Source of the DNA: Escherichia phage naswa
Sequence record: MN850595.1
DNA length: 64,000 nt
Direction: 5' to 3' (one strand)
Part shown: in pieces, positions 18,907-47,064 of the stretch
How the letters are laid out: every line of letters begins with the position of its first letter
How positions within the stretch are numbered: position 1 is the stretch's first letter
Program-made: the position numbers and the translations under genes
The notes under the pieces: generated by a model
The model's database searches: none
The model's input: the letters and a program-made list of their open reading frames with translations, nothing else
Told to the model about the DNA's origin: nothing

Positions 18907-19671
18907 TTGAAATTTATCTACAAAGAACACTACCACAAAGGTGTTGTGTGGAGTCTATTTGACGGGTCTGGTGGTGCAGTCATTGACTGGGCAAAAGCTG
19001 GGTACCTGTGCCTGTGCTTTAATGCAGAAGGCGCTGATCACGGCAGTTATGCAGAGGTTATAACCGATCATCCCAACATTCACTATGTGGATTATTGGAT
19101 TGACCCATGGTTCCCTCAGGAAACTTTTTGCATGTACCCAGCTCCAGACTTTATTCTTGCATTTCCTCCGTGCACGCATTTAGCGGTATCAGGTGCTGCA
19201 CATTTTAAGAAAAAGCTGGCTAAGGACCCTCTGATCCAAATTAATGCCGTAAAGGATGCTCGGGTTGCGGAAGAGCTGGGAGAGATTTACGATTGCCCGT
19301 GGCATGTAGAGAATCCTGTGGGTGTTATGTCCACACTGTGGCGCAAACCTGATTACCGTTTTCATCCTTCTGACTATGGTGGGTATTTACCGGAGGATGA
19401 TGTAAACCCTTGGTTTCCTGAATTTATAGCTCCACGTGATGCCTATCCAAAAATAACTTGCGGCTGGATAGGTAATGGATTTATAATCCCGCCCACAAAA
19501 CCTGTCCCGCAAATAGTTGACGCGGTTAGCGGGTATTCTATGCAACACGCCAAGCTGGGTGGAAAGAGTGCAAGAACGAAGATGATTCGAAGTCTCACAC
19601 CACGTGGCTGGGCAAAAGCCGTATTCTTAGCAAACGAGCCTGTAGTAAGGAGCAGAATTAATGGGAAGTAA
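18907..19671 (+). CDS. putative C5-cytosine DNA methyltransferase-like protein
   Basis: 'FDGSGG' (FxGxGG-like), 'FPPCTHLAVSG' (PC motif) and 'VENPVG' (ENV-like); start placed at TTG 18907 after terminator with TAGGAGA SD. Confidence 0.4.
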   Translation: MKFIYKEHYHKGVVWSLFDGSGGAVIDWAKAGYLCLCFNAEGADHGSYAEVITDHPNIHYVDYWIDPWFPQETFCMYPAPDFILAFPPCTHLAVSGAAHFKKKLAKDPLIQINAVKDARVAEELGEIYDCPWHVENPVGVMSTLWRKPDYRFHPSDYGGYLPEDDVNPWFPEFIAPRDAYPKITCGWIGNGFIIPPTKPVPQIVDAVSGYSMQHAKLGGKSARTKMIRSLTPRGWAKAVFLANEPVVRSRINGK

Positions 19672-21739
19672 ATTTATGGCATCTGCATACAACCGTTTCG
19701 GTGAGCCAAACCCGAAAGCAACTAAGTATAAAAGTGGGGGGAGTGTGAAACGAGACTATCGTGATGAAAAAGAAGTTGAAACTGTAGAGACTGTTTTAGA
19801 AAATACTAAAATTGTCCCTGTCCCACAACAAAATATCGGTCTGATGGCTGCACAATATTTTGGTGTGCGATCAGCATTGTCCCAAGAAGACGGTGTGACA
19901 GTCACTGCAACATATTTCCCATATTACGACCGCTACGGAAATCTGTCTGGTTTCAAAAAGCGTGACTGGACTATTCCTAAAGAGCAAAGGGGCCATTTCT
20001 CCGTTGTTGGCATCGTAAAGGCCAACTCCCAGATGTTTGGTCAAAAGCTGTGTGCATCTTCCAACAACCGTAAGCAGATTAACGTTTGTGAGGGAGAAGG
20101 TGATGTTATTGCAGCATGGCAGGCTGCATATCAGATACAAGTAAAAGGGATTCTCACCAACGCTAAAGCCCCGGCAAAGGTGAAGCAGTGGGCTAAAGAG
20201 GTCCAGGACGGGATCGACGCAGTTATCAACGGTGGTGATCTGGCAGGAAAACCCTGCCTGCCTTTTGTTGGAATTAACTGTGGATGTGCAAACGCAGTAG
20301 ATACTTTTGCAAACAATGAGAAGTTTATCCGTAGCTATGGAACAGTTGTGCTGGCAATGGATAACGATGCAGCTAACGAGGTAGAGAAGCAAAAACACGT
20401 CATTAAAGGTGTTGAGGCCACGCACAATATCGCAGCATTTTTGATGTCTGATAACGTTTACCACGTAGAATACCCCGGTGAAGTAAATGACCCTGACGGT
20501 GTAAAAGATATCCGAGACATGCTGAAGGCTAAAAAGCTGGAAGATATTGTCAACATGTTCCGGCACCCTGTTAAATATGTGCCTGATGCTGTGTCGGATT
20601 TAGAAGACTTCTCTATCGAGTCTTTGCGGAAAAAGACTTCCAACGGGGTAGATATCAGTGCAGAGTTCCCAAAACTGCAAAAAATGCTAAAAGGCTTGCA
20701 CAAAGGGACACTTGTAATGCTTACAGGTCCATCAGGCGGCGGTAAAACAACCGTGGCTAAAAAACTGGAACACTGTATTGCAAGATACCTAATGGACCCG
20801 ACATGCCCGAAGGCCGATGACTATGAAGAGGATGATCGTCTATGCATGATCCATCTTGAGGAGGATCCAGAGGAAGCAATTAACTCCTTGTATGCAAACC
20901 AGTTAGGGTTTGATGTTAAAGAGTTTGTTGAAGATCCTAGCCAGTTTTTAACTGATCAAGAACACGCAGAGATTCACCAATCATGGGCAAAAGCTGGAAA
21001 AATCAAAGTGTTCAAACATTTCGGGTCTATTCCGGTGGACGAGTTGATTACCAAGCTTAAGCAAATGGTTTGCCTGTACCATTGTCGTTATATTGTGCTG
21101 GATCACCTGTCCATGGTAATTTCAGGGCTTAATGTTAAGGATGAGCGAAAAGAACTGGACATGGCTATGACCCAACTGGCTGCGTTTTGTAAGCAGTTTA
21201 ACGTGTTTATCTTGGTGATCGCTCACCTCAAACGTACAGAGATTGTGCCCCCTAAGGACAAGGATGGTAACCCATTACCTTTCTGGTATCCTGTGCGAAA
21301 AGAGAATTTGCGAGGATCGGCTGGGCTTGAACAGTTGAGTTGGGTAGTCATAGGTGTCGAGGCCGAAGAAATGGTGGATCGTTCTCGTGGACGTGTCCGT
21401 CTGGTAGGTCTTAAAAACCGTCCAGCAAAAACTTTAGGTATTGCTGACACTTTAGTTATGGATCCGCATACAGGTAAGTTCCATGATGCCAGTAATTGGT
21501 ACTGGGACAAAGAAATGCAGATGTTCACAGACGGAGAAGGTGGGGAGGTTGTTTGGAGACCTCAGGCTATGTTTGAGGATCAGGAGCATGCAGTTGTAGA
21601 AACACCTATGGGCAAGGTTGTGGCTGATAAGGTTGTAACACCCACTGTCAAGCCTATTGACACGCAGGAAGACCTCCAATACGATGATCCATCCTCTGAT
21701 CCGGTCCCTGGTTTTGAGGATGATGAAACACCTTTTTAA
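19661..21739 (+). CDS. DNA primase-helicase (TOPRIM + DnaB/gp4-like helicase)
   Basis: Acidic TOPRIM-like 'CEGEGD'; Walker A 'GPSGGGKT', Walker B 'IVLDHL'; acidic C-terminal tail '...FEDDETPF'. Confidence 0.75.
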   Translation: MGSKFMASAYNRFGEPNPKATKYKSGGSVKRDYRDEKEVETVETVLENTKIVPVPQQNIGLMAAQYFGVRSALSQEDGVTVTATYFPYYDRYGNLSGFKKRDWTIPKEQRGHFSVVGIVKANSQMFGQKLCASSNNRKQINVCEGEGDVIAAWQAAYQIQVKGILTNAKAPAKVKQWAKEVQDGIDAVINGGDLAGKPCLPFVGINCGCANAVDTFANNEKFIRSYGTVVLAMDNDAANEVEKQKHVIKGVEATHNIAAFLMSDNVYHVEYPGEVNDPDGVKDIRDMLKAKKLEDIVNMFRHPVKYVPDAVSDLEDFSIESLRKKTSNGVDISAEFPKLQKMLKGLHKGTLVMLTGPSGGGKTTVAKKLEHCIARYLMDPTCPKADDYEEDDRLCMIHLEEDPEEAINSLYANQLGFDVKEFVEDPSQFLTDQEHAEIHQSWAKAGKIKVFKHFGSIPVDELITKLKQMVCLYHCRYIVLDHLSMVISGLNVKDERKELDMAMTQLAAFCKQFNVFILVIAHLKRTEIVPPKDKDGNPLPFWYPVRKENLRGSAGLEQLSWVVIGVEAEEMVDRSRGRVRLVGLKNRPAKTLGIADTLVMDPHTGKFHDASNWYWDKEMQMFTDGEGGEVVWRPQAMFEDQEHAVVETPMGKVVADKVVTPTVKPIDTQEDLQYDDPSSDPVPGFEDDETPF

Positions 21740-21797: not shown

Positions 21798-24575
21798 ATG
21801 AGCATGTGGTCGTTCGATTTTGAGTCATCCGGTTTGCTGGAAGACCCAGATCTTTATTATCACTGCGGTCTGTTTAAAGAGCTGAATAAGAACCGTTTTA
21901 TGCTGTTCCTTCCTCTAAATGACCGCACACACTACTCCGGGGAGGATATAGAAAAGGCTAAGAACTTCATTCTGGCAAAGAAAACTCTTTATAAAGATTT
22001 TGAAGTTCGCATAGCAGATTTTTCGGAGTTGGAAGGTTGGCTTACAGGCAATTCTGACTGGTCACCAACAGCTTTGAACTGCCATAACTGCTACAGTTAT
22101 GACTTTATGCTGATGGAAAGATTATCCGGTATTCATTTTGATATGTTCCGTGATCCTAAATGCATGGGGACTATCAACGACCACCAGGTTAACCTGTTTG
22201 ATACGTTGGCGATGAGCAGAATCTTGTGGCCTGATCGCCCTTTACCAAAAGGTTGTCCGGACTCTGTATTCAACCCGGTTACTAAGAAAATGCAGCCTGT
22301 TGGTCCTCACGGCCTTATGGCATGGGGCTACGCCCTTGGTAACCAGAAAGTTCAAATTGATGACTGGCGCGATCTTCCGTTGTGGAAGTATGTGGATCGT
22401 GTATTCGAGGACGTTATCATCCAGGAGCTGCTCTGGAAAGAGCTGGTAGCGGAATCAAAAGGCGTATTCTACGGCAAATCTGACATGCAGAACTTTATGT
22501 ACGATCCAGCCAAAGAGAAGCCGAAAGGGTTCAAGAAAATCACCTGGAAGAACGCATTACGCCGAGGCATGCTGCAGCACTTCCTGATGGAGCTGCAGGC
22601 CCGTCAGGGTGTGTATTTCGACATAGATGGGGCTATTGCCTTACGTGACCGTTGCGATGCGTGGATGAAAGAGATCGCTGATCGTGTTGAACCTCAACTT
22701 CCTTTAAAAGAGTTGTCAATGTCTCAGCGGCCCAAGTTCCCTGAAAAGCCGTTTAACCAAGACGGGACAATCTCCAATAATGGTTGGAAATGGTTAAAAG
22801 ATAAGCTTGGCTATCCTGTAGACATGAGCGCTTTAGAATTCAAAGCCCCGCCTAAGCGAGCATTTACCTCCACAGGAGATGTCAGCAAGATGGGGATAAA
22901 ATGGTGCGAAGAGATGGGCTGCAAAGACCCCGACAAGATGGCTGATTTCTTGAGAGGTTATATTAAGGGCACCTCCACACCACAACCTTTACCTAAAGAG
23001 CTGATGGATCAGGCAATAAGTGATCTGCAGCAGAAGCGAATGCCTGACTGCAAGATACCTATGAAAATCAGCAATCAGGACGACATTAAGCGATACCTGA
23101 TCAGTGCTGGTTGGCTTCCGACAATGTGGAGAACTAAGGATGTAACTAAGGACAGCAAGAAGAAAGCTCTACCTGATGCAGATGTTGATGCACGAGTATA
23201 TGCATACATGGACGAGCTTTTAGAGTCAGAGTATTGTGACCTAATTATCAACTTCTGGAACAAAACTGATGCTAAGTTTCAGACAACAGTGCACAAGTTC
23301 CGAAGCTTTCCTAACTCCGAAAGGATTAAAAAGGAAGTGTTCGGGAAAATACGCAGAAAAGCCAGGGCACTTATTACTTCTCCGCAACTGAAAGATACGT
23401 TTGGACACCTATGTCCGAATCTTGAAAAATTGAACGGAGAGATGGCTAAAGATATCGTCTTGTGGTTATCATTGCGAAACCGCAGATCGGTCCTTGATCC
23501 AATCAAGGAGGATAAGGTTGATACTGGTCTTCTTAATCACCCACGTTTGAAGATTGACCATAAGCTTCCTGCTAAAAGCTCTGGATTAACAAACACTTCC
23601 CGACAGAAACACAGTATTTGTGCAAACATGCCTAAACCATCTCCTAAAGTGGTTATGGGTAAAGAGATGCGTAGCTTGTGGGGTGTTCCTCCTGGATACT
23701 TTGAGATCGGTATTGACGGGTCCAACTTAGAGCAGCTTATCGGGGCTTGGGGTGCCTTTGAGTTCGACAACGGCTTGTACTATGATGTTGTAAGTAACGG
23801 AGACGCACACCAAAACAATGCTGAAGCATATACAAAAGTAGCAGGCAGAGAGGTGTCTCGTAACGACGGTAAACCTATCACGTATGGGGTTATGTACGGG
23901 GCACAAAAAGATAAAGTTGCAGATATGCTGGATATCTCCCCAGAGTTGGGGCAAAGGGTGATCGATGCACTTTGGGATGCCAACCCCGGTCTTAAGGGGC
24001 GCAAAGAGGATCTGGAGAAATTCTGGGAAGCAACAGGTAAGAAGTTTATCTACTCTTTTGATGGTCATGCTATCTGGACCCGATCTAAACACTCTTTACT
24101 TAATGCATACCAACAAAATGGTGGTGCATCGCTGTGTGACTTAGTTGGGATACTCATGCACCACCAAATGGTGAAGCGTGGGTGGTACGATGAAGGTGTC
24201 CGTCGTATTATCTATTACCATGACGAATATCAGCTTCAAGTGCCTGACACACCGAAGTATAAGACTGTGTACACCTTCGACACAATTGAAGAACTGGAAG
24301 CATTTAAGGCAGAGCAGGAAGCCAAACTTCATGTGTTCGACGGTCATAAGTACAAAAAGGTACGCAAGGATGAGGACGGAAACGAAGTGGTTGACAGAGA
24401 CGGAAACACGGTGTACGATCCTATCCTGAACGATGACGGAAAGCTTGAACTTATCTGGAGCCCTGTGGGTGAAATGGTGGTGCATTGCTTCTGGCAAGCT
24501 TCTAAAATGATGGGAGTCCCGTTCCAGATCACAGGTGAATACTTGTGTGGTCGTAATTGGGGTGATTGTCACTAA
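21798..24575 (+). CDS. DNA polymerase, family A, with 3'-5' exonuclease
   Basis: Exo I 'FDFE'; Pol A motif A 'DGSNLEQL', motif B 'RNDGKPITYGVMYG', motif C 'YYHDE'. Confidence 0.85.
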   Translation: MSMWSFDFESSGLLEDPDLYYHCGLFKELNKNRFMLFLPLNDRTHYSGEDIEKAKNFILAKKTLYKDFEVRIADFSELEGWLTGNSDWSPTALNCHNCYSYDFMLMERLSGIHFDMFRDPKCMGTINDHQVNLFDTLAMSRILWPDRPLPKGCPDSVFNPVTKKMQPVGPHGLMAWGYALGNQKVQIDDWRDLPLWKYVDRVFEDVIIQELLWKELVAESKGVFYGKSDMQNFMYDPAKEKPKGFKKITWKNALRRGMLQHFLMELQARQGVYFDIDGAIALRDRCDAWMKEIADRVEPQLPLKELSMSQRPKFPEKPFNQDGTISNNGWKWLKDKLGYPVDMSALEFKAPPKRAFTSTGDVSKMGIKWCEEMGCKDPDKMADFLRGYIKGTSTPQPLPKELMDQAISDLQQKRMPDCKIPMKISNQDDIKRYLISAGWLPTMWRTKDVTKDSKKKALPDADVDARVYAYMDELLESEYCDLIINFWNKTDAKFQTTVHKFRSFPNSERIKKEVFGKIRRKARALITSPQLKDTFGHLCPNLEKLNGEMAKDIVLWLSLRNRRSVLDPIKEDKVDTGLLNHPRLKIDHKLPAKSSGLTNTSRQKHSICANMPKPSPKVVMGKEMRSLWGVPPGYFEIGIDGSNLEQLIGAWGAFEFDNGLYYDVVSNGDAHQNNAEAYTKVAGREVSRNDGKPITYGVMYGAQKDKVADMLDISPELGQRVIDALWDANPGLKGRKEDLEKFWEATGKKFIYSFDGHAIWTRSKHSLLNAYQQNGGASLCDLVGILMHHQMVKRGWYDEGVRRIIYYHDEYQLQVPDTPKYKTVYTFDTIEELEAFKAEQEAKLHVFDGHKYKKVRKDEDGNEVVDRDGNTVYDPILNDDGKLELIWSPVGEMVVHCFWQASKMMGVPFQITGEYLCGRNWGDCH

Positions 24576-31418: not shown

Positions 31419-31751
31419 ATGGTAACATTGGAAAGACGTAAAGCTATTGCCGCCACACTGGCAGACATCTTTTGGGATTGTAATTTAAAATCTACCCGAA
31501 ATTGTGGTGCATCTGTAGATGTATTATTCCCACGGCCTACTATTGTTGCAATGGGCAACCTGCTCGATGTGGTATATGGAGCATGGGACAAGGAAGGTGG
31601 ATTCTATATCTGGCAACCTGACTACGGGACTTGGAAAGAGGTTAGTGGTTCTTCGGACTTCACTCCTGCAGTGGCTAAAATGGATGGCTGGAAAATCTAT
31701 GTCGGTAACGACATGGAACTGAAAGGCGAAATTGTTTACTGGTTACCTTAA
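31419..31751 (+). CDS. hypothetical protein
   Basis: Track ORF 110 aa. Confidence 0.45.
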   Translation: MVTLERRKAIAATLADIFWDCNLKSTRNCGASVDVLFPRPTIVAMGNLLDVVYGAWDKEGGFYIWQPDYGTWKEVSGSSDFTPAVAKMDGWKIYVGNDMELKGEIVYWLP

Positions 31752-31772
31752 GAAAGTCCAGGAGATAAAGTT

Positions 31773-32018
31773 ATGAACAAAGGGTGGACATTTGTAGACG
31801 GCGTTAAAAACATGCCTCTAGGAAAGTATATTGTAGCCATGGCAGATGAGAATGGCAAGGTTGATTTCGGAGTTTGCGAGGTTGTTCTTGCAGGATCTGG
31901 TGACTATGCTCACAAAACTGGGATAATTAACGGTCATTTCTACTTTGATTACAACCCTGTTGTGGCGTATATGGCTATGCCAGAGTTCGAGCTCCCAAAG
32001 GAAGGTGCAGATGTTTAA
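31773..32018 (+). CDS. hypothetical protein
   Basis: Track ORF 81 aa. Confidence 0.45.
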   Translation: MNKGWTFVDGVKNMPLGKYIVAMADENGKVDFGVCEVVLAGSGDYAHKTGIINGHFYFDYNPVVAYMAMPEFELPKEGADV

Positions 32019-32208
32019 GCTTAAATCTGCATGGAACATCGCTGTGGGGGACGAGATCCGTATCCCAGGTGGAAAGACCATTATGAAAATATCTCGTATC
32101 GAGTACGAAGGTGATCGTGTATTTCATATCTTTGCAGAAGATGGTCGAGAAATTTATATACAGGCAGGCTCTCACATCTATATTCGTAAGAAAGGGGAGG
32201 ACAAATGA
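32011..32208 (+). CDS. hypothetical protein
   Basis: Start moved to ATG 32011 behind AAGGAAGG; overlaps stop of upstream gene. Confidence 0.4.
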   Translation: MFKLKSAWNIAVGDEIRIPGGKTIMKISRIEYEGDRVFHIFAEDGREIYIQAGSHIYIRKKGEDK

Positions 32209-32534
32209 CAGAGATCATCATTTCAACTGCAGGGTATGTATTCCTGACAATCATTGCGCTGGCTATTCTGGTGGCGGTGTATGGATTTGTTATCCTTCCT
32301 ATTCTTGAGACATTTAGTTTGTGTCGGTGTTGGAGAAAAGCTTACGGTCCACAACCATGGAAGGACTGGCCCCACCTGGTGCGCTTAGCGTTCTCTTATG
32401 CTTACGATCACTCCAGTAGTGCATGCATAACCGGATACCACGCCCACAACTGGAGCTGGGAAGGGTTGAGGAAATGGAATGTTACAAAGACCATACCTCT
32501 GCGCATGTACAAACCTAAAAACAAAGACAACTGA
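32205..32534 (+). CDS. membrane protein
   Basis: 109 aa; hydrophobic helix 'YVFLTIIALAILVAVYGFVILPIL'. Confidence 0.5.
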   Translation: MTEIIISTAGYVFLTIIALAILVAVYGFVILPILETFSLCRCWRKAYGPQPWKDWPHLVRLAFSYAYDHSSSACITGYHAHNWSWEGLRKWNVTKTIPLRMYKPKNKDN

Positions 32535-32569
32535 TACTTGAAAATTCCTGGCATATCAAGTATAAGGGG

Positions 32570-33060
32570 GATTTCTAAAATGGATTTCCTCCTTTTGATA
32601 TTTCACCGGGCTGGATATTTTAAAATTCTTAGAAAATCAGAAAATGGATCGAAAACTAAAATGGATTTTTCAGAGTAGGCGCGACAAGCTGAATAGCTCA
32701 TCCTATCGTTTGCACCATATTCCAGACCACCATTATAGATTTCCCACACATGCTAACCTCCCTCTACTAGAACTTCCTCCACTTACCCTTGACCTTCTAT
32801 GGTAACAATCTAACCACTATCTTGAAGTTGCGGTGCAGCTTTCCAGGTACTCGATCTACTTTTCATTTCAGGGCTTGGATTTTCTGAAAATTTTTCTCGA
32901 TAAATTTCTCAGTACTCGATCTGTTTTTCGTTTTCTGAATCGGATTTTCTGGAAATCGTTCCGGATCTCGACCTGAAATTTTTGGGGACGAAATCTATTT
33001 TTCGTTTTCAGAAATGGATTTTTAAAATTTCTATATGGGAATATTTTATGGGGCACTGTT
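32570..33060. repeat. AT-rich degenerate tandem direct repeats (~70-bp period)
   Basis: Recurring 'TACTCGATCT(A/G)(C/T)TTTTC(A/G)TTT(T)C(A/T)G', 'GGATTTTCTG(G)AAA' and 'AAAATGGATTT' units; non-coding. Confidence 0.5.
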
Positions 33061-33083
33061 TTATAGGAAATTGTTACGGAGGG

Positions 33084-33101
33084 TAATTAGCATGCTAATT
33101 A
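33084..33101. promoter_or_regulatory. perfect 18-bp palindrome TAATTAGCATGCTAATTA
   Basis: Read directly; lies in non-coding region. Confidence 0.45.
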
Positions 33102-33167
33102 AATTTATTAAATGCGAGGGATTCTTATTTAGAATTTTGAATGATAATTATTCTCGTTTGCAGAATA

Positions 33168-33349
33168 ACGGGCAGGCCCGGTGATTGTCTCCCGGCCCCT
33201 GCTGCCCCGGCTTGTTATTATAGTATCACACAGGACAAAGAAGGCAAGGATTTTTTGCATAAATTTTTAAATGATAATGATAACCGTTCTCATTTTATGA
33301 AGCGCCCATCCCCGGTGGTTGTCTCCCCCGTCACCGGTGCCTGCCGTCC
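33168..33349. repeat. two direct copies of a GC-rich imperfect-palindrome element (~45 bp)
   Basis: 'GGCAGGCCCGGTGATTGTCTCCC...' at 33168-33211 and '...CCGGTGGTTGTCTCCCCCGTCACCGGTGCCTGCC' at 33305-33349; third inverted copy at 42738-42787. Confidence 0.5.
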
Positions 33350-33499
33350 TTTCGATAGGTATATTATGCCGCCTGGCGGGGCCGCTGTCAACACTTTTCA
33401 AAAAATTTTTCTAACCTGATGCGCTAACCGTTGCAACCTGGCGGGGCCAGCCTGGCAGGTCCGCACTATAAAGTAAACAGCTACAGAAGAGGTACAAAA

Positions 33500-33658
33500 A
33501 TGAAAGGTAATGCTACTCGCCTGGGAAATGTAGTGATTAATGATACGGAAGCTATCGCCCTGGTTGAAAAGGTTATGGCGGGAGCGTTGGAACATAAAGA
33601 AGAGTACGAAAAAATGGTGGTTAACCTGGCGGGGGGCGGCAGGTGGATTCTATCATAA
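33500..33658 (+). CDS. hypothetical small protein
   Basis: 52 codons from ATG 33500 behind AGAAGAGG; partly overlaps CCTGGCGGGG repeat, so coding status uncertain. Confidence 0.3.
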   Translation: MKGNATRLGNVVINDTEAIALVEKVMAGALEHKEEYEKMVVNLAGGGRWILS

Positions 33659-33677
33659 AAATAATTTAAAATAGTCG

Positions 33678-33705
33678 TTGACAACAAGGTTAATCATGGT
33701 ATTAT
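33678..33705 (+). promoter_or_regulatory. sigma70-like promoter (TTGACA-N16-TATTAT)
   Basis: Hexamers read directly. Confidence 0.5.
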
Positions 33706-33755
33706 TACCCTACAAGGTGAACAACACCGCACTAACCAGTAAAGAGGATAAATTT

Positions 33756-33953
33756 ATGAACGCATACGGGATCAAAGTACGTCGCAACACTCGCCAGGTG
33801 GTCACCAATCAAGTGATTTGCCGGGTGGATGTAACCATCAACAACGGGCAAGGCCTTTATAAATTTCGTCGCGGTCATAGCTATACCCTGCAACAGCTTA
33901 ATCGTTGCGCCCTGACAAAAGGTCAGATCAACCACTGGTTTAATAAAAAATAA
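33756..33953 (+). CDS. hypothetical small protein
   Basis: Start moved to ATG 33756 behind AAAGAGGA. Confidence 0.4.
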   Translation: MNAYGIKVRRNTRQVVTNQVICRVDVTINNGQGLYKFRRGHSYTLQQLNRCALTKGQINHWFNKK

Positions 33954-33956
33954 GTA

Positions 33957-33985
33957 TTGACATACAGTCCGACACCAAATACACT
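33957..33985 (+). promoter_or_regulatory. sigma70-like promoter (TTGACA-N17-TACACT)
   Basis: Hexamers read directly. Confidence 0.5.
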
Positions 33986-34017
33986 AAAAGCACAAAAGAC
34001 ACTAAGAGGATAAAATC

Positions 34018-34416
34018 ATGAAAACCACTACCTTTAATTTTGATAATGCAGACTTTTCTTTTTCTGATGTCAAGAACTGCCGCCGTGATCGTGGATTTTA
34101 CAAGGCTTATAATCTGGTGGGCCTGGACGATGACAATAATTTGCACGAAGTAGCTGAGATCCGGTATTATGCCGCCGCCAGCGGGAACACTCACTACTGC
34201 GTGTTTTGGATTCACGACAACAAGAACAATAAGTACGGTTATACTGGCGGCAAGGCGAGCGGTCACGGTTACGATAAAGCTAACGCAGCACTTGAGAGCG
34301 CATTAAATGCTATGGGGATCACTGCCGACGGCTGGATCTACGAAGAAGAGTTTTTGTCGGCACTTGCTGACCACCTGGGCTATAAAAAACACATTGTAAC
34401 ATGCGCCCACGAATAA
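34018..34416 (+). CDS. hypothetical protein
   Basis: Track ORF 132 aa; AAGAGGA SD. Confidence 0.5.
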   Translation: MKTTTFNFDNADFSFSDVKNCRRDRGFYKAYNLVGLDDDNNLHEVAEIRYYAAASGNTHYCVFWIHDNKNNKYGYTGGKASGHGYDKANAALESALNAMGITADGWIYEEEFLSALADHLGYKKHIVTCAHE

Positions 34417-34422
34417 AAATCA

Positions 34423-34450
34423 TTGACACGCTGCAAAATTTAAGTAAACT
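34423..34450 (+). promoter_or_regulatory. sigma70-like promoter (TTGACA-N16-TAAACT) with 5' leader hairpin
   Basis: Followed by GGCGGGAA-TGTT-TCCCGCC stem-loop at 34461-34479 and CA-rich leader. Confidence 0.5.
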
Positions 34451-34498
34451 AGACACAAAAGGCGGGAATGTTTCCCGCCAGCACAAAGGAAAAAGATC

Positions 34499-34894
34499 AT
34501 GAATAAGAACGTACGCCGCATCATGAACGAACTGGCAAACGATGAAAAAATTATTGATATGCATTTGGTCAACATTTGCCGCCGTTGTGTAACATATAAC
34601 AACCGCGCCGCAAAAGCGCGTGAGATGAACGCAAAAGGCACCTTAAAGCCCTTTCAGGTGGTTGTAAAATCTATAACTAGCGCAGCAGGCCAGGCGCAGG
34701 ACCACAACAACGAGAGCGCTAATATTGATCCGTCTTACGTAATGAAACGGATCCGGACTTGCAAGAATAAAGAGCAGGTATATAACGTCATAGATTGGCT
34801 GGACTCCCTGGGCGATGTGGTTTACAATAGGTTTTCTGCAGCTATCGAGATCCAGCTTGACAGATTGGACGGGAAAGTACTAAAAACTTATTGA
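34499..34894 (+). CDS. hypothetical protein
   Basis: Track ORF 131 aa. Confidence 0.5.
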   Translation: MNKNVRRIMNELANDEKIIDMHLVNICRRCVTYNNRAAKAREMNAKGTLKPFQVVVKSITSAAGQAQDHNNESANIDPSYVMKRIRTCKNKEQVYNVIDWLDSLGDVVYNRFSAAIEIQLDRLDGKVLKTY

Positions 34895-42695: not shown

Positions 42696-42726
42696 AAACA
42701 GGGCTTGCAATGGTCCTGTTTTTTGT
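42696..42726 (+). terminator. rho-independent terminator
   Basis: AACAGG-GCTTGCAATGGT-CCTGTT hairpin then TTTTGTT. Confidence 0.45.
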
Positions 42727-42737
42727 TATACTTATTA

Positions 42738-42787
42738 CACGGCAGGCACCTGGCGACGGGGGGAGACAATCACCGGGCCTGCCTGTC
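42738..42787. repeat. GC-rich imperfect-palindrome element (inverted copy)
   Basis: Reverse complement carries 'GGCAGGCCCGGTGATTGTCTCCCCCCGTC..CAGGTGCCTGCC', matching the two copies at 33168-33349. Confidence 0.5.
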
Positions 42788-42808
42788 ATATAAGAACTAT
42801 AAAAACCG

Positions 42809-44349: not shown

Positions 44350-44367
44350 TTTTTTAACTGAATTATC

Positions 44368-44393
44368 AAGGGGCTTAGGCCCCTTTCTTTTTG
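44368..44393 (+). terminator. rho-independent terminator
   Basis: AAGGGGC-TTAG-GCCCCTT hairpin then TCTTTTTG. Confidence 0.6.
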
Positions 44394-44399
44394 TCTGCT

Positions 44400-46840
44400 C
44401 TTCCCCCCCTACCATAAACGGCCCTACCTGGCAAGTGGAATAATTGACGAGCCATCAATCCCACACACTGTACAAATATACATGGAAAATAACTATTGCA
44501 TAATTTTTCATTGTGTGGTAGCAAGGCCATTTTTACCCGTTTTACCTTCCAAAATTGCACGTAATGCCGCTATTGCACAAATTTTAACCTGATGCACATC
44601 TCCAATATCTTGTCAACAACTAAAAATCTTTATAAGTCATGCACTTACATAACCACAAAAGCGTGTTCTACGTGAAAAATCGAGTATAACTATAGCCGCC
44701 AGATCTCAGAATTTACGTACGCTCACCAGTCTATAGCCTGCTAAGTATTTATTCCAACCATAGAATAACGGAATAGTCAATACCTGCATAAAATAATTAT
44801 TCGTGTAAACTGCATAACATAAATCGGCTAGGATGTCAACATTTTTCGTAAACAGCTCGAAATTATAACGGTGAGTTATAATAAACAGAGAAATCTTTAG
44901 TCGTCTAATGTTTACTGTACATTACTATACTGACTGGAATCATTAGATGACTAAGAGAAAGATAAGAAATCATTAACAATGCAATTGTTTTATTCGTAAC
45001 AATAAGGCAACTATGCAAACGAATGGCATGGCGCGACGGAGTCGCGACATAATATAAAAGCAGTAACCATCACCCCCGTGATAGTTTGTCTGCAAACTAT
45101 TAATCAGATCATAGTTGCCTTGTATTTAGTTAATCATGACATAACAAGCAGGGCAACTATAGATCTGCTAATAGTTGCCCTGCTTTTATATTATGTCATG
45201 CTAATTATAATCAGTGCGATTATTGTCATGTATAATTATTGTCATGCAAACGAATGGCATGGCTGATTATCGGTGTGTAAACAGTCAATCATGTAAATGG
45301 TTAGCATGTGAACAATCAGGAATGTAAACAATCCAGTGTGTAAACTAATAGGTGTGTAAAAGTGTCATGTTGTGTCAGTTAGGTCACATTATGTCAGACA
45401 AGTTTTTCTCCTCTTTGTCAAGTGCTGCATGAAAAATTTACAAGCTTGTATGGTAGCATTTTTGCGGCCCTGTTTACATTCAGGAGTGTATGTATAATCC
45501 TTGGTGTGTGGGCGTTTAGACGTCTAGACGGTTGGAAGTATGCAGGTCAATATCTAATCTATTGGCTGCTAACTATATCCCACACAAATGATAAGAAATA
45601 TAATTGTTATATGCGTAAACTGTAACTCATGTTATCAATCCCTGTATGTATCGCCAGTGGTGCGCATAATGGGTATTATGTTAAATTGCCCGTAATGATA
45701 ACTATTCTCACAATGATAGGTATTCTCATTCACCCCCACAAGATAGGTTGCAAATGTTGTGCCACTGTGTGAACGGCCTAGCCTATTAATTTGCCTCACT
45801 GCCTTGATATTTGAGAATTGTTATAAGAATGAGAAGTATTCCCATTTCGTCCGCCTGGCAGCACTCCAGTCGCTACCGGCTCCTGACAGGGCAGCTCTCC
45901 TGTAGGTCAGGTCAAAATCGTGGTAGAATTGGGCCTATTCAGATATTTCTGGCTGACTCTTCAGGTCTGTGTGAGAAAAGCCAACCTTTCCGGCGGCGGG
46001 GAGGGGTCAATTAAAAAATTTACGTGGTGTATGAAGCGCTCTTCAGGTAAGGCAGGTATTATGTGATGAAACCCTCTTCAGGCAATGATATTTGTGGGTG
46101 TGATATTTGCTGGAAAGCCAGATATGACGGGACTCCCGGCGGGGCAGGGGTAGTACAGACAGGGAAAATATGGGGGATGTAGTTGGGGAAATTGATCAGG
46201 CAGGTAGAGTATGGAATATGTTACAAGTATGTTAAATATGGAGGTTGAATATCTGCAGGATTTGTGTGTAAAATCAAAGACTTAAGTGGTGTTGTGGTAT
46301 TTTCTATAAATAATTCAAGTTTAATAGGTAATATTTGTCTCTATCCACTTTGTGTGGTAAACAGATTCAGATGAAATTGGTTTACAAGTGTATACATAAT
46401 ATACAAATTAAAGATACAAGAAACCCCCCTCCCCCTTCGGCTACCATTCACCTTTTCCTCTGACTGGTACTTAAACACTTATTCAGACTCTTCAGGTTAT
46501 CACCCATATATCATATGGCAGTGACTGGTGTCCTCCGGCCCCTCTTTCGTCACCCGTCCGCTTCGCCATGCTAATGCCATAGCCAATGGTTCGGTTGTTC
46601 ACCCTGTTCACTCAGGTGTATCTCCATACCCCTTCAAACCGAAGAGAACAGAAAACCCGAATTACTCGGTAAAAGAAAAGAGAAGAACTTAATTTTATCA
46701 GGATAGGCAAGAATGTCAAGGCATGACTGCTCACTAAACAAGCAAACAGTCATGTGTGGTAGGTAAGTGATTGTGGTGGTAGGAAATTTAGTTGAAAGAT
46801 GTGTTATAGGTGCGCTTCCAGCACTTTAGCCGGGCAGCTA
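44400..46840. other. ~2.4-kb non-coding convergence region with several repeat families (candidate origin / packaging / terminus region)
   Basis: No long co-directional ORF; 20-bp direct repeat at 45013 and 45244; ATAGTT(G/T) palindromes 45082-45182; six TGTAAAC-like iterons 45276-45361; CTCTTCAGG x5 from 45957. Confidence 0.5.
45276..45361. repeat. six iteron-like repeats (TGTAAAC core, 14-17 bp period)
   Basis: Cores at 45276, 45293, 45307, 45323, 45339, 45355. Confidence 0.5.
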
Positions 46841-46848
46841 ATTGTGTG

Positions 46849-47064
46849 TCAGTCTAGCGGTTCATCCTCTACTTCACTGAAATCAATGTTCATGGTCTCT
46901 TCCCAACCATCGATCTCAGCACAAGAGTGGAGTTCTTTAGGGTTTACTCCCAAAGCCTCAGCAACAGAGTCTATATTTAACACCTCTGGCAGGTATGATT
47001 CATCGAATTCAAGGTAAATCAGGCCACGAGTGTTGTCAGCTCCACCAAATATCTCTATCTTCAT
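46849..47064 (-). CDS. hypothetical small protein
   Basis: Track ORF 71 aa; starts MKIEIF like other small proteins on this arm. Confidence 0.45.
   Translation of the reverse strand: MKIEIFGGADNTRGLIYLEFDESYLPEVLNIDSVAEALGVNPKELHSCAEIDGWEETMNIDFSEVEDEPLD

What the first reader, a model, noticed from the sequence alone, without database searches (positions are those of the whole stretch)
32570..33060. AT-rich array of degenerate ~70-bp direct repeats between middle and early regions
At least three imperfect units repeat TACTCGATCT..TTTTCGTTTTC(T/A)G and GGATTTTCTG(G)AAA motifs with no credible ORF. The array is iteron-like and sits at a module boundary, consistent with a replication origin or a binding array for a regulator.
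Basis: seen in the sequence. Interest (0 to 1): 0.55.

Follow-up and report, generated by a model that had tools for sequence, protein, structure and literature searches.

The report
Conserved non-coding repeat block in rV5-like phage
The repeats are real: a 1-kb gene-free stretch of an rV5-like E. coli phage holds degenerate repeats kept almost unchanged across the genus, most likely a control region that ends one transcription unit and possibly a replication start, but its function is untested.

Summary
The window is a Vequintavirus (rV5-like) genome. The finding lies in a ~1-kb ORF-free gap (32535-33500) between co-directional genes. The repeats are real. Three 65-74-bp degenerate units span 32838-33050 (self-alignment score 42 against 13.4±1.8 in shuffles). 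A related pair of ~81-bp units lies at 32533-32694. All share a TTTCWRAAWYGGATTT box that occurs nowhere else in the 140-kb genome. A 175-bp non-repeated spacer separates the two groups. Across ten genomes the repeat blocks are better conserved than the neighbouring gene (94% against 85% identity). The spacer varies in sequence but keeps its length and a C-rich, G-poor composition. No ORF there is credible. The region is not the terminal repeat, which lies 12.4 kb away. It has no DnaA or IHF sites, no Rfam match, no host homology and no GC-skew switch. Plus-strand signals point to a layered transcription stop: two hairpins with U tails, the densest T-tract cluster in 64 kb, and a Rho-loading-like spacer. 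A minus-strand promoter aimed at the array and the near-total conservation keep a replication origin open. The origin reading is neither shown nor excluded.

The parts
32564..32603 (+). Hairpin t1 (arms 32564-32571 / 32587-32594, loop = first TTTCTAAAATGGATTT box) followed by TTGATATTT. It sits 30 nt after the stop codon of the last gene of the upstream operon and looks like an intrinsic terminator.
   Evidence: Plus-strand RNA fold is -15.3 kcal/mol, z -3.0 (1/200 shuffles). The minus strand gives only -6.8, z -0.6. It also folds in slur16 (-18.3, z -4.6), ECP2309 and NHEP1. All cells are paired in 8 distinct sequences, with one G-C to A-U double change and three compatible one-sided changes, while the loop is invariant.
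32533..32694 (+). Left block: two ~81-bp degenerate direct repeats, each carrying a CTAAAATGGATTT box (32572-32587, 32653-32668). A further AAAATGGATCG copy lies at 32641.
   Evidence: Repeat families D3 and D7. AAATGGAT occurs four times here. The stretch 32572-32670 has 93% mean pairwise identity and 81% invariant columns in 10 genomes.
32671..32845 (+). Non-repeated spacer. It is variable in sequence, fixed in length, and C-rich/G-poor on the plus strand. This resembles a Rho-loading (rut) site on plus-strand RNA, or equally a G-rich transcript if read leftward.
   Evidence: 74% pairwise identity and 41% invariant columns. Length is 155-156 nt, C 28-34% and G 12-15% in all 10 genomes. Variable sites by codon phase are 34/35/33. 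GC skew is -0.51, the 99.7th percentile of the genome and the only such segment inside the plus-strand gene block. The plus-strand consensus fold is only -3.6 kcal/mol.
32838..32902 (+). Repeat unit 1 (TACTCGATCT...GGATTTTCTGAAAA).
32897..32906 (.). TCGATAAATT. From my own memory this is the reported high-affinity H-NS nucleation 10-mer. It lies at the junction of units 1 and 2.
   Evidence: It is the only exact copy in the 64-kb window and in the 140-kb EmilHeitz genome. The 13 bases TCTCGATAAATTT are invariant in 10 genomes. This was noticed post hoc.
32903..32976 (+). Repeat unit 2. It includes a small hairpin, 32948-32965 (UCUGGAA-AUCG-UUCCGGA).
   Evidence: Positions 32877-32969 are almost invariant in 10 genomes.
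32977..33050 (+). Repeat unit 3. It contains hairpin t2 (32978-33015, 16 pairs including G-U pairs) followed by GGATTTTTAAAATTTC, the second terminator-like element.
   Evidence: The terminator scan lists it. The fold is -15.9 kcal/mol, z -2.56, against -7.8 on the minus strand. 98.8% of cells are paired, with G-U to A-U and U-A to U-G changes in NHEP1 and ECP2309.
33084..33101 (.). Perfect 18-bp palindrome TAATTAGCATGCTAATTA in the adjoining conserved block.
   Evidence: One arm carries T>C in half of the relatives.
33137..33347 (+). Two ~133-bp tandem units. Each has a Fur-box-like 19-mer (33137, 33273) and a GC-rich core CCCGGTGRTTGTCTCCC (33177, 33311). They belong to the same conserved non-coding block.
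33363..33391 (-). Near-consensus sigma-70 promoter on the minus strand (TTGACA-17-CATAAT) pointing towards the array. No minus-strand gene lies behind it.
   Evidence: 11/12 match. The -35 hexamer is invariant; the -10 is CACAAT in 8 of 10 relatives.

Best explanation
The region is a genus-wide, single-copy, non-coding control region. It closes the long rightward replication ('middle') operon and insulates it from the terminal block of small early genes. The proposed mechanism runs along the plus-strand transcript. RNA polymerase leaving the last gene (stop codon at 32532-32534) meets hairpin t1 and its U tail. Transcripts that read through then expose about 156 nt of untranslated, unstructured, C-rich/G-poor RNA on which Rho can load. 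They next run into three U-tract-dense repeat units that end in the 16-bp hairpin t2 and its U tail. Five same-orientation copies of the box TTTCWRAAWYGGATTT would be recognition sites for a sequence-specific factor, phage or host, that tunes this stop or uses the same DNA for a second purpose. What is shown: the anatomy, the conservation, the strand asymmetry, the plus-strand-specific folding, and the spacer's conserved composition and length. What is inferred: that termination occurs here, that Rho is involved, and that a factor binds the box.
For: Position: the region starts directly after the last gene of the plus-strand operon that carries helicase, primase-helicase and DNA polymerase, and it precedes genes that each have a TTGACA/TATAAT promoter. 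Hairpins t1 and t2 fold significantly only on the plus strand, each is followed by a U-rich tail, and natural substitutions keep the pairs. The array has 12 runs of four or more T on the plus strand against 2 A runs. That is the maximum for any 226-nt window of the 64 kb (mean 1.46; fraction reaching 12 is 0.0003). GGAT occurs 9 times on the plus strand and once on the minus strand. The spacer drifts in sequence but keeps its length of 155-156 nt and C 28-34% / G 12-15% in 10 genomes. It is non-coding and predicted to be unstructured as plus-strand RNA. Purifying selection is evident: 94% identity and 83% invariant columns, against 85%/63% for the neighbouring CDS and 74%/41% for the spacer, and the region is present in all 116 records.
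Against: A terminator or insulator does not need base-by-base conservation of 215 + 100 bp, so this reading leaves the strongest feature unexplained. The phage's recognised terminators are short GC-rich hairpins (rV5 Table S4), whereas t1 and t2 are AU-rich and atypical. Covariation support is thin: one double change, with 60/500 shuffles reaching it, and none for t2. Units 1 and 2 have no significant hairpin. There are no transcript data for any Vequintavirus. C-richness on the plus strand is equally G-richness of a leftward transcript. The motif box is unique to this locus, which suits a unique cis site such as an origin at least as well.
Confidence: 0.35

Rival explanations
1. Replication origin. 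There are two versions. In the first, an unidentified phage initiator binds the directly repeated boxes. In the second, initiation is transcription-primed as at T7 phi1.1A/B or T4 oriF/oriG: the minus-strand promoter at 33391 sends a transcript leftward through the AT-rich array into the spacer. There the RNA is G-rich and the template C-rich, which favours a persistent R-loop that primes the polymerase.
For: The motifs are single-copy in the genome. All boxes are in direct orientation. Conservation is near-total and exceeds that of coding DNA, and the region is present in every genome. The DNA is AT-rich and ranks 5th-10th least stable genome-wide. A near-consensus minus-strand promoter points at the array with no gene behind it. 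The spacer has GC skew +0.51 on the minus strand, conserved as composition rather than sequence. The phage encodes a T7-type Pol A and gp4-like primase-helicase. From my own knowledge, the T7 primary origin also lies at a gene-class boundary.
Against: The units are 65-74 bp, and the short box is spaced irregularly (64, 17 and 353 bp), unlike iterons. There are no DnaA or IHF sites. The resemblance to the oriC 13-mer is not above chance: 45 matches against 38.6 expected. No initiator or DNA-binding domain was found in ten flanking proteins. GC skew does not change sign across the array: +0.124 upstream, +0.085 downstream. The least stable DNA is the terminal non-coding region, not this one. The -10 of the minus-strand promoter is weaker (CACAAT) in most relatives. 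[quoted passage not shown]
Confidence: 0.25
2. Binding platform for a nucleoid-associated or regulatory protein acting on double-stranded DNA. One example is H-NS nucleating at TCGATAAATT and spreading over the T-tract-rich array. Another is a phage early/middle switch protein bound to the five boxes and looping the two repeat groups across the fixed-length spacer. Either would control the adjacent promoter block.
For: An exact H-NS-type 10-mer occurs once in 140 kb, inside the array, and is invariant. GGAT positions are helically phased: R = 0.76 at 10.6 bp, p about 0.02, tested post hoc. The spacer length is fixed while its sequence drifts. Fur-box-like sites and a palindrome lie in the adjoining conserved block.
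Against: The T-tracts as a whole are not helically phased (R 0.43, p 0.79), so intrinsic curvature is not supported. The H-NS and Fur matches are single post-hoc consensus hits. A binding array normally shows conserved cores with drifting linkers, whereas here the linkers are conserved too. No plus-strand promoter was found within 600 bp downstream of the array.
Confidence: 0.12
3. A non-coding RNA: either a long 3' UTR running from the stop codon to t2 (~500 nt, plus strand), or a leftward RNA of ~840 nt from the 33391 promoter. The repeated boxes would bind a protein or another RNA.
For: In ICP1, which shares the replication module (primase-helicase 48% identical), the most abundant transcript is an ~800-nt non-coding RNA from a ~1-kb ORF-less gap. 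The t1 loop is invariant while its stem co-varies. The minus-strand consensus fold of the spacer has 94% of cells paired and 9 pairs with double changes.
Against: There is no Rfam match at E <= 1. Whole-region folds are not significant: z -1.9 for the plus strand and +0.6 for the minus strand. Hairpins around the other four boxes are at chance. The long-range complementarity between the left block and the array is broken by uncompensated substitutions at 32627, 32629 and 32891. The minus-strand spacer structure was derived from the same alignment and is rich in G-U pairs, so its controls are biased. No plus-strand promoter was found.
Confidence: 0.1
4. A T5-type injection stop or hold site. 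The genome would enter end-first, and transfer would pause at this conserved repeat block until products of the terminal early genes allow the rest to enter.
For: Phage Gotham has 459-bp terminal repeats, and they map to window 45397-45855. That places the array at 8.3-8.7% of the genome from one physical end, compared with 7.9% for the T5 first-step-transfer DNA. The T5 iss also lies in a 1.2-1.7-kb untranslated region of direct repeats (including 66-bp units), inverted repeats and palindromes that is better conserved than nearby genes. The DNA between the array and the end carries only small early-type genes. Vequintaviruses share daunorubicin sensitivity with T5-like phages.
Against: The paired DnaA boxes typical of the T5 iss are absent. 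No A1/A2-like function was recognised, although only a few early proteins were scanned. Which end enters first is unknown. Two-step transfer has never been reported for a myovirus. The shared percentage may be coincidence.
Confidence: 0.05
5. A functionless relic of local duplications in an intergenic spacer.
For: The units are degenerate (70-77% identity) and Tandem Repeats Finder does not score them.
Against: The repeat blocks are more conserved than the flanking coding sequence. The spacer between them drifts at 74% identity, so the local mutation rate is not low. The block is present in all 116 genomes.
Confidence: 0.03

Closest known systems
Layered terminators at operon ends, e.g. lambda tR1 (rut site followed by several release sites), and tandem intrinsic terminators
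   Same: An untranslated C-rich/G-poor, unstructured stretch lies directly after a stop codon. It is followed by U-rich pause or termination positions and hairpins with U tails on the transcribed strand.
   Different: The hairpins are AU-rich with large loops. The downstream part is a triple 65-74-bp repeat conserved at almost every base. No dependence on Rho or Nus factors has been tested.
Bacteriophage T5 injection stop signal region (Repeat Region 3; Davison, bioRxiv 10.1101/866236)
   Same: A large untranslated region about 8% from a physical genome end. It is a mosaic of direct repeats (~66 bp), inverted repeats and palindromes, is conserved more strictly than neighbouring genes, and borders a block of small host-takeover-type genes.
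   Different: There is no sequence similarity and there are no DnaA-box pairs. The terminal repeat is 459 bp, not ~10 kb, so the block lies outside the repeat. The phage is a myovirus with no evidence of two-step transfer.
Transcription-primed phage origins (T7 primary origin: phi1.1A/B promoters plus an AT-rich segment; T4 oriF/oriG: promoter plus downstream unwinding element). Named from my own knowledge.
   Same: A promoter aimed into AT-rich DNA at a boundary between gene classes, in a phage with a T7-type replisome. The transcript would be G-rich where the template is C-rich.
   Different: The promoter is about 300 bp from the array and about 510 bp from the G-rich stretch. GC-rich elements lie in between. 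No initiation data exist.
Iteron origins (lambda ori, SPP1 oriL, iteron plasmids)
   Same: Directly repeated, same-orientation motifs next to AT-rich DNA, at a unique locus.
   Different: The unit length is 65-74 bp rather than 17-22 bp. The short box is irregularly spaced. There is no adjacent or recognisable initiator gene.
ICP1 ~800-nt non-coding RNA in a ~1-kb ORF-less gap (Barth et al., mSystems 2020, PMC7567579)
   Same: A ~1-kb ORF-free gap in a phage that shares the Pol A / gp4-type replication module.
   Different: There is no sequence or positional homology. No transcript is known here and no structure is supported.

Membership tests
Iteron-type replication origin | Three or more direct repeats of about 17-22 bp at regular (helical) spacing | tested here: not met
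   The units are 65-74 bp. The 12-mer WRAAATGGATTT lies at 32576, 32657 and 33010, with a variant at 32640, so spacing is irregular.
Iteron-type replication origin | Adjacent easily melted AT-rich unwinding element | tested here: inconclusive
   Nearest-neighbour stability ranks the region 10th (100 bp), 5th (200 bp) and 6th (400 bp) least stable in 140 kb. The terminal non-coding region ranks first.
Iteron-type replication origin | Cognate initiator gene, usually adjacent | tested here: inconclusive
   Ten flanking proteins gave no DNA-binding or initiator family in PHROGs or Pfam. Most phage proteins here are unannotated.
Iteron-type replication origin | Host-factor sites (DnaA boxes, IHF) | tested here: not met
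   No exact DnaA box and no IHF consensus lie in 32535-33500. One-mismatch hits are at background density. oriC 13-mer-like matches number 45 against 38.6 expected.
Iteron-type replication origin | Replication starts there | not testable with these tools
   This needs marker-frequency sequencing or 2-D gels. GC skew shows no switch, but skew in this phage follows transcription direction.
Transcription-primed origin (T7 / T4 oriF-oriG type) | Promoter directed into a downstream AT-rich unwinding element | tested here: inconclusive
   A minus-strand TTGACA-17-CATAAT at 33391-33363 points at the array, which begins about 300 bp away. The -10 is weaker in 8 of 10 relatives.
Intrinsic (Rho-independent) terminator | Stable hairpin immediately followed by a U tract on the transcribed strand | tested here: met
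   t1 is -15.3 kcal/mol, z -3.0, with tail UUGAUAUUU. t2 is -15.9 kcal/mol, z -2.6, with tail GGAUUUUUAAAAUUU, and is listed by the scan. The stems are AU-rich and the tails are interrupted, so efficiency is unknown.
Rho-dependent terminator | Untranslated, unstructured C-rich/G-poor stretch of at least ~80 nt (rut) upstream of pause sites | tested here: met
   49 C against 16 G in 150 nt. The composition is kept in 10 genomes. The stretch is non-coding. The consensus fold is -3.6 kcal/mol. Dependence on Rho is not testable here.
T5-type injection stop signal | Conserved repeat- and palindrome-rich untranslated region ~8% from the entering end | tested here: inconclusive
   The array lies at 8.3-8.7% from the Gotham left end, and the repeats and conservation are present. 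Which end enters first is unknown.
T5-type injection stop signal | Paired DnaA boxes; A1/A2 proteins; two-step transfer | tested here: not met
   There are no DnaA boxes. A1/A2 homologues were not recognised in the proteins scanned. Two-step transfer is not testable here.
Direct terminal repeat / packaging site | Coincides with the physical genome ends | tested here: not met
   The 459-bp Gotham repeat maps to window 45397-45855, 12.4 kb downstream.
Known RNA families (Rfam 15), tRNA/tmRNA | Covariance-model or ARAGORN match | tested here: not met
   No Rfam hit at E <= 1 in 31500-34500. No tRNA in the window.
H-NS nucleation site | High-affinity 10-mer TCGATAAATT in AT-rich DNA (consensus recalled from memory) | tested here: met
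   An exact, unique and invariant copy lies at 32897-32906. Binding is not testable, and this is a single post-hoc match.

The most novel reading that the evidence does not exclude
The block is a unique essential cis site of a kind not yet described for myoviruses. One possibility is a T5-like hold point for end-first genome entry at ~8.5% of the genome. The other is a transcription-primed origin in which a leftward RNA crosses the triple repeat and forms an R-loop on the compositionally conserved C-rich spacer. Either would explain why every base of about 300 bp of non-coding DNA is held constant while the neighbouring genes drift.
Probability: 0.12. Interest if true: 0.75.

Novelty: new member of a known kind. 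Interest (0 to 1): 0.4.

Why it matters
Vequintaviruses (rV5, the BASEL phages Bas48-59, and many therapy and biocontrol candidates) have no mapped origin, no transcript map and no described regulatory sites. The rV5 genome paper lists no promoter or terminator in this gap. This is the best-conserved non-coding block found in the stretch examined and it is unique in the genome. That makes it a concrete target for locating the origin, for defining the early/middle boundary, or for testing how the genome enters the cell. It is also a segment to leave intact when engineering these phages. If it proves to be only a terminator region, the result is ordinary.

Tried and rejected
1. Terminal repeat or packaging site: rejected. 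The Gotham 459-bp repeat maps 12.4 kb away.
2. Small proteins: rejected. The 62-aa, 34-aa and 48-aa ORFs carry stops or frameshifts in relatives. The 47-aa ORF has no conserved start. Substitutions show no codon phase.
3. Known RNA families or tRNA: none.
4. Long-range pairing or cruciform between the left block and the array (inverted repeat I2): rejected. Substitutions at 32627, 32629 and 32891 break pairs without compensation.
5. DnaA boxes, IHF sites and GATC clustering: all at background.
6. oriC 13-mer-like GATCTnTTnTTTT at unit starts: not enriched.
7. Intrinsic curvature from phased T-tracts: not supported, p 0.79.
8. GGAU boxes displayed in hairpin loops, as in CsrA-sponge RNAs: only t1 folds above chance, and the base before GGA is U rather than a purine.
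9. Sigma-70 promoters inside the array or the left block: none meets the scan criteria. By eye, TTGATA-15-TATTTT has the wrong spacing.
10. Host or plasmid origin of the sequence: no match in 5,426 E. coli genomes. The one 'plasmid' hit is a phage genome.
11. Synteny in other Vequintavirinae genera: PVP-SE1 lacks the region. The flanking gene and the unit pattern are confined to the genus.
12. A replication-linked GC-skew switch: absent.
13. Published transcriptome or origin data for the genus: none found.

Full report
IDENTITY AND CONTEXT

The window is a Vequintavirus (rV5-like myovirus of E. coli). The segment 32400-33500 is 100% identical to phages magaca and EmilHeitz and 80-99% identical to 114 further records, all in this genus. 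The finding lies in an ORF-free gap of about 1 kb (32535-33500) between genes on the same strand.

Upstream lies the end of a long plus-strand block carrying rIIA/B, helicase, primase-helicase (19661-21739) and DNA polymerase (21798-24575), followed by small genes. The last of these is the rV5 ORF200 homologue at 32205-32534. Downstream are about 35 small genes, most with their own TTGACA/TATAAT promoter. These are the rV5 promoters P164-P195A.

Different annotators call different, mutually incompatible ORFs inside the gap. The rV5 genome paper predicts no promoter or terminator there.

THE OBSERVATION

Three degenerate direct repeats of 65-74 bp span 32838-33050. They are 70-77% identical, with 75% mean column identity in a six-row alignment. 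The best off-diagonal self-alignment scores 42, against 13.4 ± 1.8 (maximum 21) in dinucleotide shuffles. BLAST finds the off-register match in a relative at E = 5e-12. Tandem Repeats Finder does not score the array.

The stated interval is composite:
- 32533-32694 holds two ~81-bp degenerate repeats (families D3 and D7).
- 32671-32845 is not repeated.
- 32838-33050 holds the three 65-74-bp units.

All five units share the box TTTCWRAAWYGGATTT. The 12-mer WRAAATGGATTT (3 copies), GGATTTTCTG (2) and TTTTCGTTTTC (2) occur nowhere else in the 140-kb EmilHeitz genome. GC content is 0.335-0.385, against 0.42-0.49 in the flanks.

CONSERVATION

Ten genomes spanning the genus were aligned and compared block by block.

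| Block | Mean pairwise identity | Invariant columns |
|---|---|---|
| Array 32846-33060 | 94% | 83% |
| Left block 32572-32670 | 93% | 81% |
| 3' end of the adjacent CDS | 85% | 63% |
| Spacer 32671-32845 | 74% | 41% |

The high conservation continues to about 33400. The block is present in all 116 records, with ≥80% coverage in 115 of them. The spacer drifts, so the local mutation rate is not low and the repeat blocks are under purifying selection.

The spacer is itself constrained in other ways. Its length is 155-156 nt, with C 28-34% and G 12-15%, in every genome. Its GC skew of -0.51 is at the 99.7th percentile of the genome and is the only such segment within the plus-strand gene block. 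It is non-coding: variable sites fall 34/35/33 by codon phase, against 8/22/9 for the CDS control. No ORF in the array is credible.

WHAT IT IS NOT

- It is not the terminal repeat. Phage Gotham has 459-bp repeats, annotated at its ends. They map to window 45397-45855, 12.4 kb downstream.
- It matches no Rfam family and no tRNA.
- It has no homology in E. coli genomes.
- It has no DnaA or IHF sites and no GATC clustering.
- The apparent resemblance of the unit starts to oriC 13-mers is at chance level.
- The inverted complementarity between the left block and the array is not maintained.
- T-tracts are not helically phased.
- GC skew keeps its sign across the array.
- Other Vequintavirinae genera lack the flanking gene and the synteny. 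IMG/VR adds only two contigs, both at within-genus divergence.

STRAND-SPECIFIC SIGNALS

Hairpin t1 (32564-32594, followed by UUGAUAUUU) sits 30 nt after the stop codon.
- It folds at -15.3 kcal/mol (z -3.0) on the plus strand and only -6.8 (z -0.6) on the minus strand.
- In eight distinct sequences every pair is kept, with one G-C to A-U double change. The loop, which is the first box, is invariant.

Hairpin t2 (32978-33015, followed by GGAUUUUUAAAAUUU) ends unit 3.
- It has 16 pairs, four of them G-U or U-G.
- It folds at -15.9 kcal/mol (z -2.6), against -7.8 on the minus strand.
- The two stem substitutions seen are pair-preserving.

Other asymmetries:
- The array carries 12 T-runs of four or more on the plus strand and 2 A-runs. 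That is the densest T-run cluster in the 64 kb.
- GGAT occurs 9:1 in favour of the plus strand.
- As plus-strand RNA the spacer has essentially no consensus structure, -3.6 kcal/mol.

Together these features match the signature of a layered transcription stop read on the plus strand: an intrinsic terminator, then a Rho-loading stretch, then U-rich release sites, then a second intrinsic terminator.

COUNTER-EVIDENCE AND RIVALS

Terminators do not need near-total conservation. The phage's recognised terminators are short GC-rich hairpins. The covariation support is thin.

A near-consensus minus-strand promoter (33391→33363, 11/12) points at the array with no gene behind it. A leftward transcript would be G-rich over the spacer. 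That fits a transcription-primed origin of the T7 or T4 type in a phage with a Pol A / gp4-type replisome. The minus-strand consensus fold of the spacer has 94% of cells paired and 9 double changes. However, it was derived from the same alignment and is rich in G-U pairs.

The DNA is only the 5th-10th least stable in the genome. [quoted passage not shown]

ICP1 also expresses its most abundant RNA, an ~800-nt non-coding transcript, from a ~1-kb ORF-less gap. That keeps an RNA-gene reading open. Against it, whole-region folds are not significant and four of the five boxes sit in no significant hairpin.

An exact, unique and invariant TCGATAAATT lies between units 1 and 2. From memory this is the H-NS high-affinity consensus. 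GGAT positions show helical phasing (R 0.76 at 10.6 bp, p about 0.02, tested post hoc). These features allow a DNA-level protein array.

The block lies 8.3-8.7% of the genome from one physical end and borders a terminal block of small early genes. In these respects it resembles the T5 injection-stop region: 7.9% from the end, 1.2-1.7 kb untranslated, built of 66-bp and other repeats, and better conserved than the nearby genes. It lacks the T5 DnaA-box pairs. The shared daunorubicin sensitivity of Vequintaviruses and T5-like phages is only circumstantial.

VERDICT

The element is a real, selected, genus-specific, single-copy cis-acting block that has not been described in the literature I could search.

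My estimates for each reading are:
- Terminator/insulator control region with a factor-binding box: about 0.35.
It lacks every specific hallmark tested but is not excluded.
- Protein array acting on double-stranded DNA: about 0.12.
- Non-coding RNA: about 0.10.
- T5-like entry stop: about 0.05.
- Functionless duplication relic: about 0.03.

Deciding between these needs wet-lab data, chiefly marker-frequency sequencing, 3'/5'-end mapping with and without bicyclomycin, and deletion genetics. Interest is moderate.

Noticed in passing
window 33060-33470: A second non-coding block, conserved to about 33400 as strongly as the array. It contains an 18-bp perfect palindrome TAATTAGCATGCTAATTA (33084-33101). 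It also has two ~133-bp tandem units, each with a Fur-box-like 19-mer (33137, 14/19; 33273, 16/19, and 17/19 in rV5) and a GC-rich core CCCGGTGRTTGTCTCCC (33177, 33311).
   Followed up: partly
window 42713-42790 (minus strand): A third, inverted copy of the GC-rich core lies in another early-region intergenic gap, between a terminator-like hairpin and a TTGACA promoter. There it folds into a strong hairpin (-27 kcal/mol, z -3.9), unlike the two copies at 33.2-33.3 kb.
   Followed up: partly
window 33363-33391 (minus strand): A near-consensus sigma-70 promoter (TTGACA-17-CATAAT) is oriented against the flanking genes, with no conserved minus-strand ORF downstream of it.
   Followed up: partly
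window 44350-46850: A ~2.4-kb ORF-poor gap where plus- and minus-strand gene blocks converge. It contains the equivalent of the 459-bp terminal repeat of phage Gotham (45397-45855) and the least stable DNA of the genome. The physical genome ends therefore lie inside this window.
   Followed up: partly
window 33501-33658: The first ORF after the gap has indels that are not multiples of three among relatives, and no codon periodicity (14/20/16). It is probably not a gene, so the non-coding region may extend to the promoter at 33678.
   Followed up: partly
window 33141-33419 (+), rV5 ORF198 homologue: A 92-aa ORF annotated in several relatives overlaps the GC-rich and Fur-like units. It has no Shine-Dalgarno sequence, a C-terminus shifted by poly-A length variation, an internal stop in phita32, and 12 synonymous against 19 non-synonymous differences. 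Its coding status is doubtful.
   Followed up: partly
PLSDB record CP057073.1; GenBank MG0656xx 'Campylobacter phage' records: A 137.6-kb 'plasmid' of E. coli from cattle faeces is a complete Vequintavirus genome. Sixteen records labelled Campylobacter phage are also Vequintavirus genomes 94-98% identical to this window.
   Followed up: no
window 21798-24575 compared with EmilHeitz 70613-74232: The window's DNA polymerase gene is a single 925-aa ORF. In EmilHeitz the gene is split by an intron carrying a homing endonuclease, so the window is not colinear with that genome upstream of ~24 kb.
   Followed up: no
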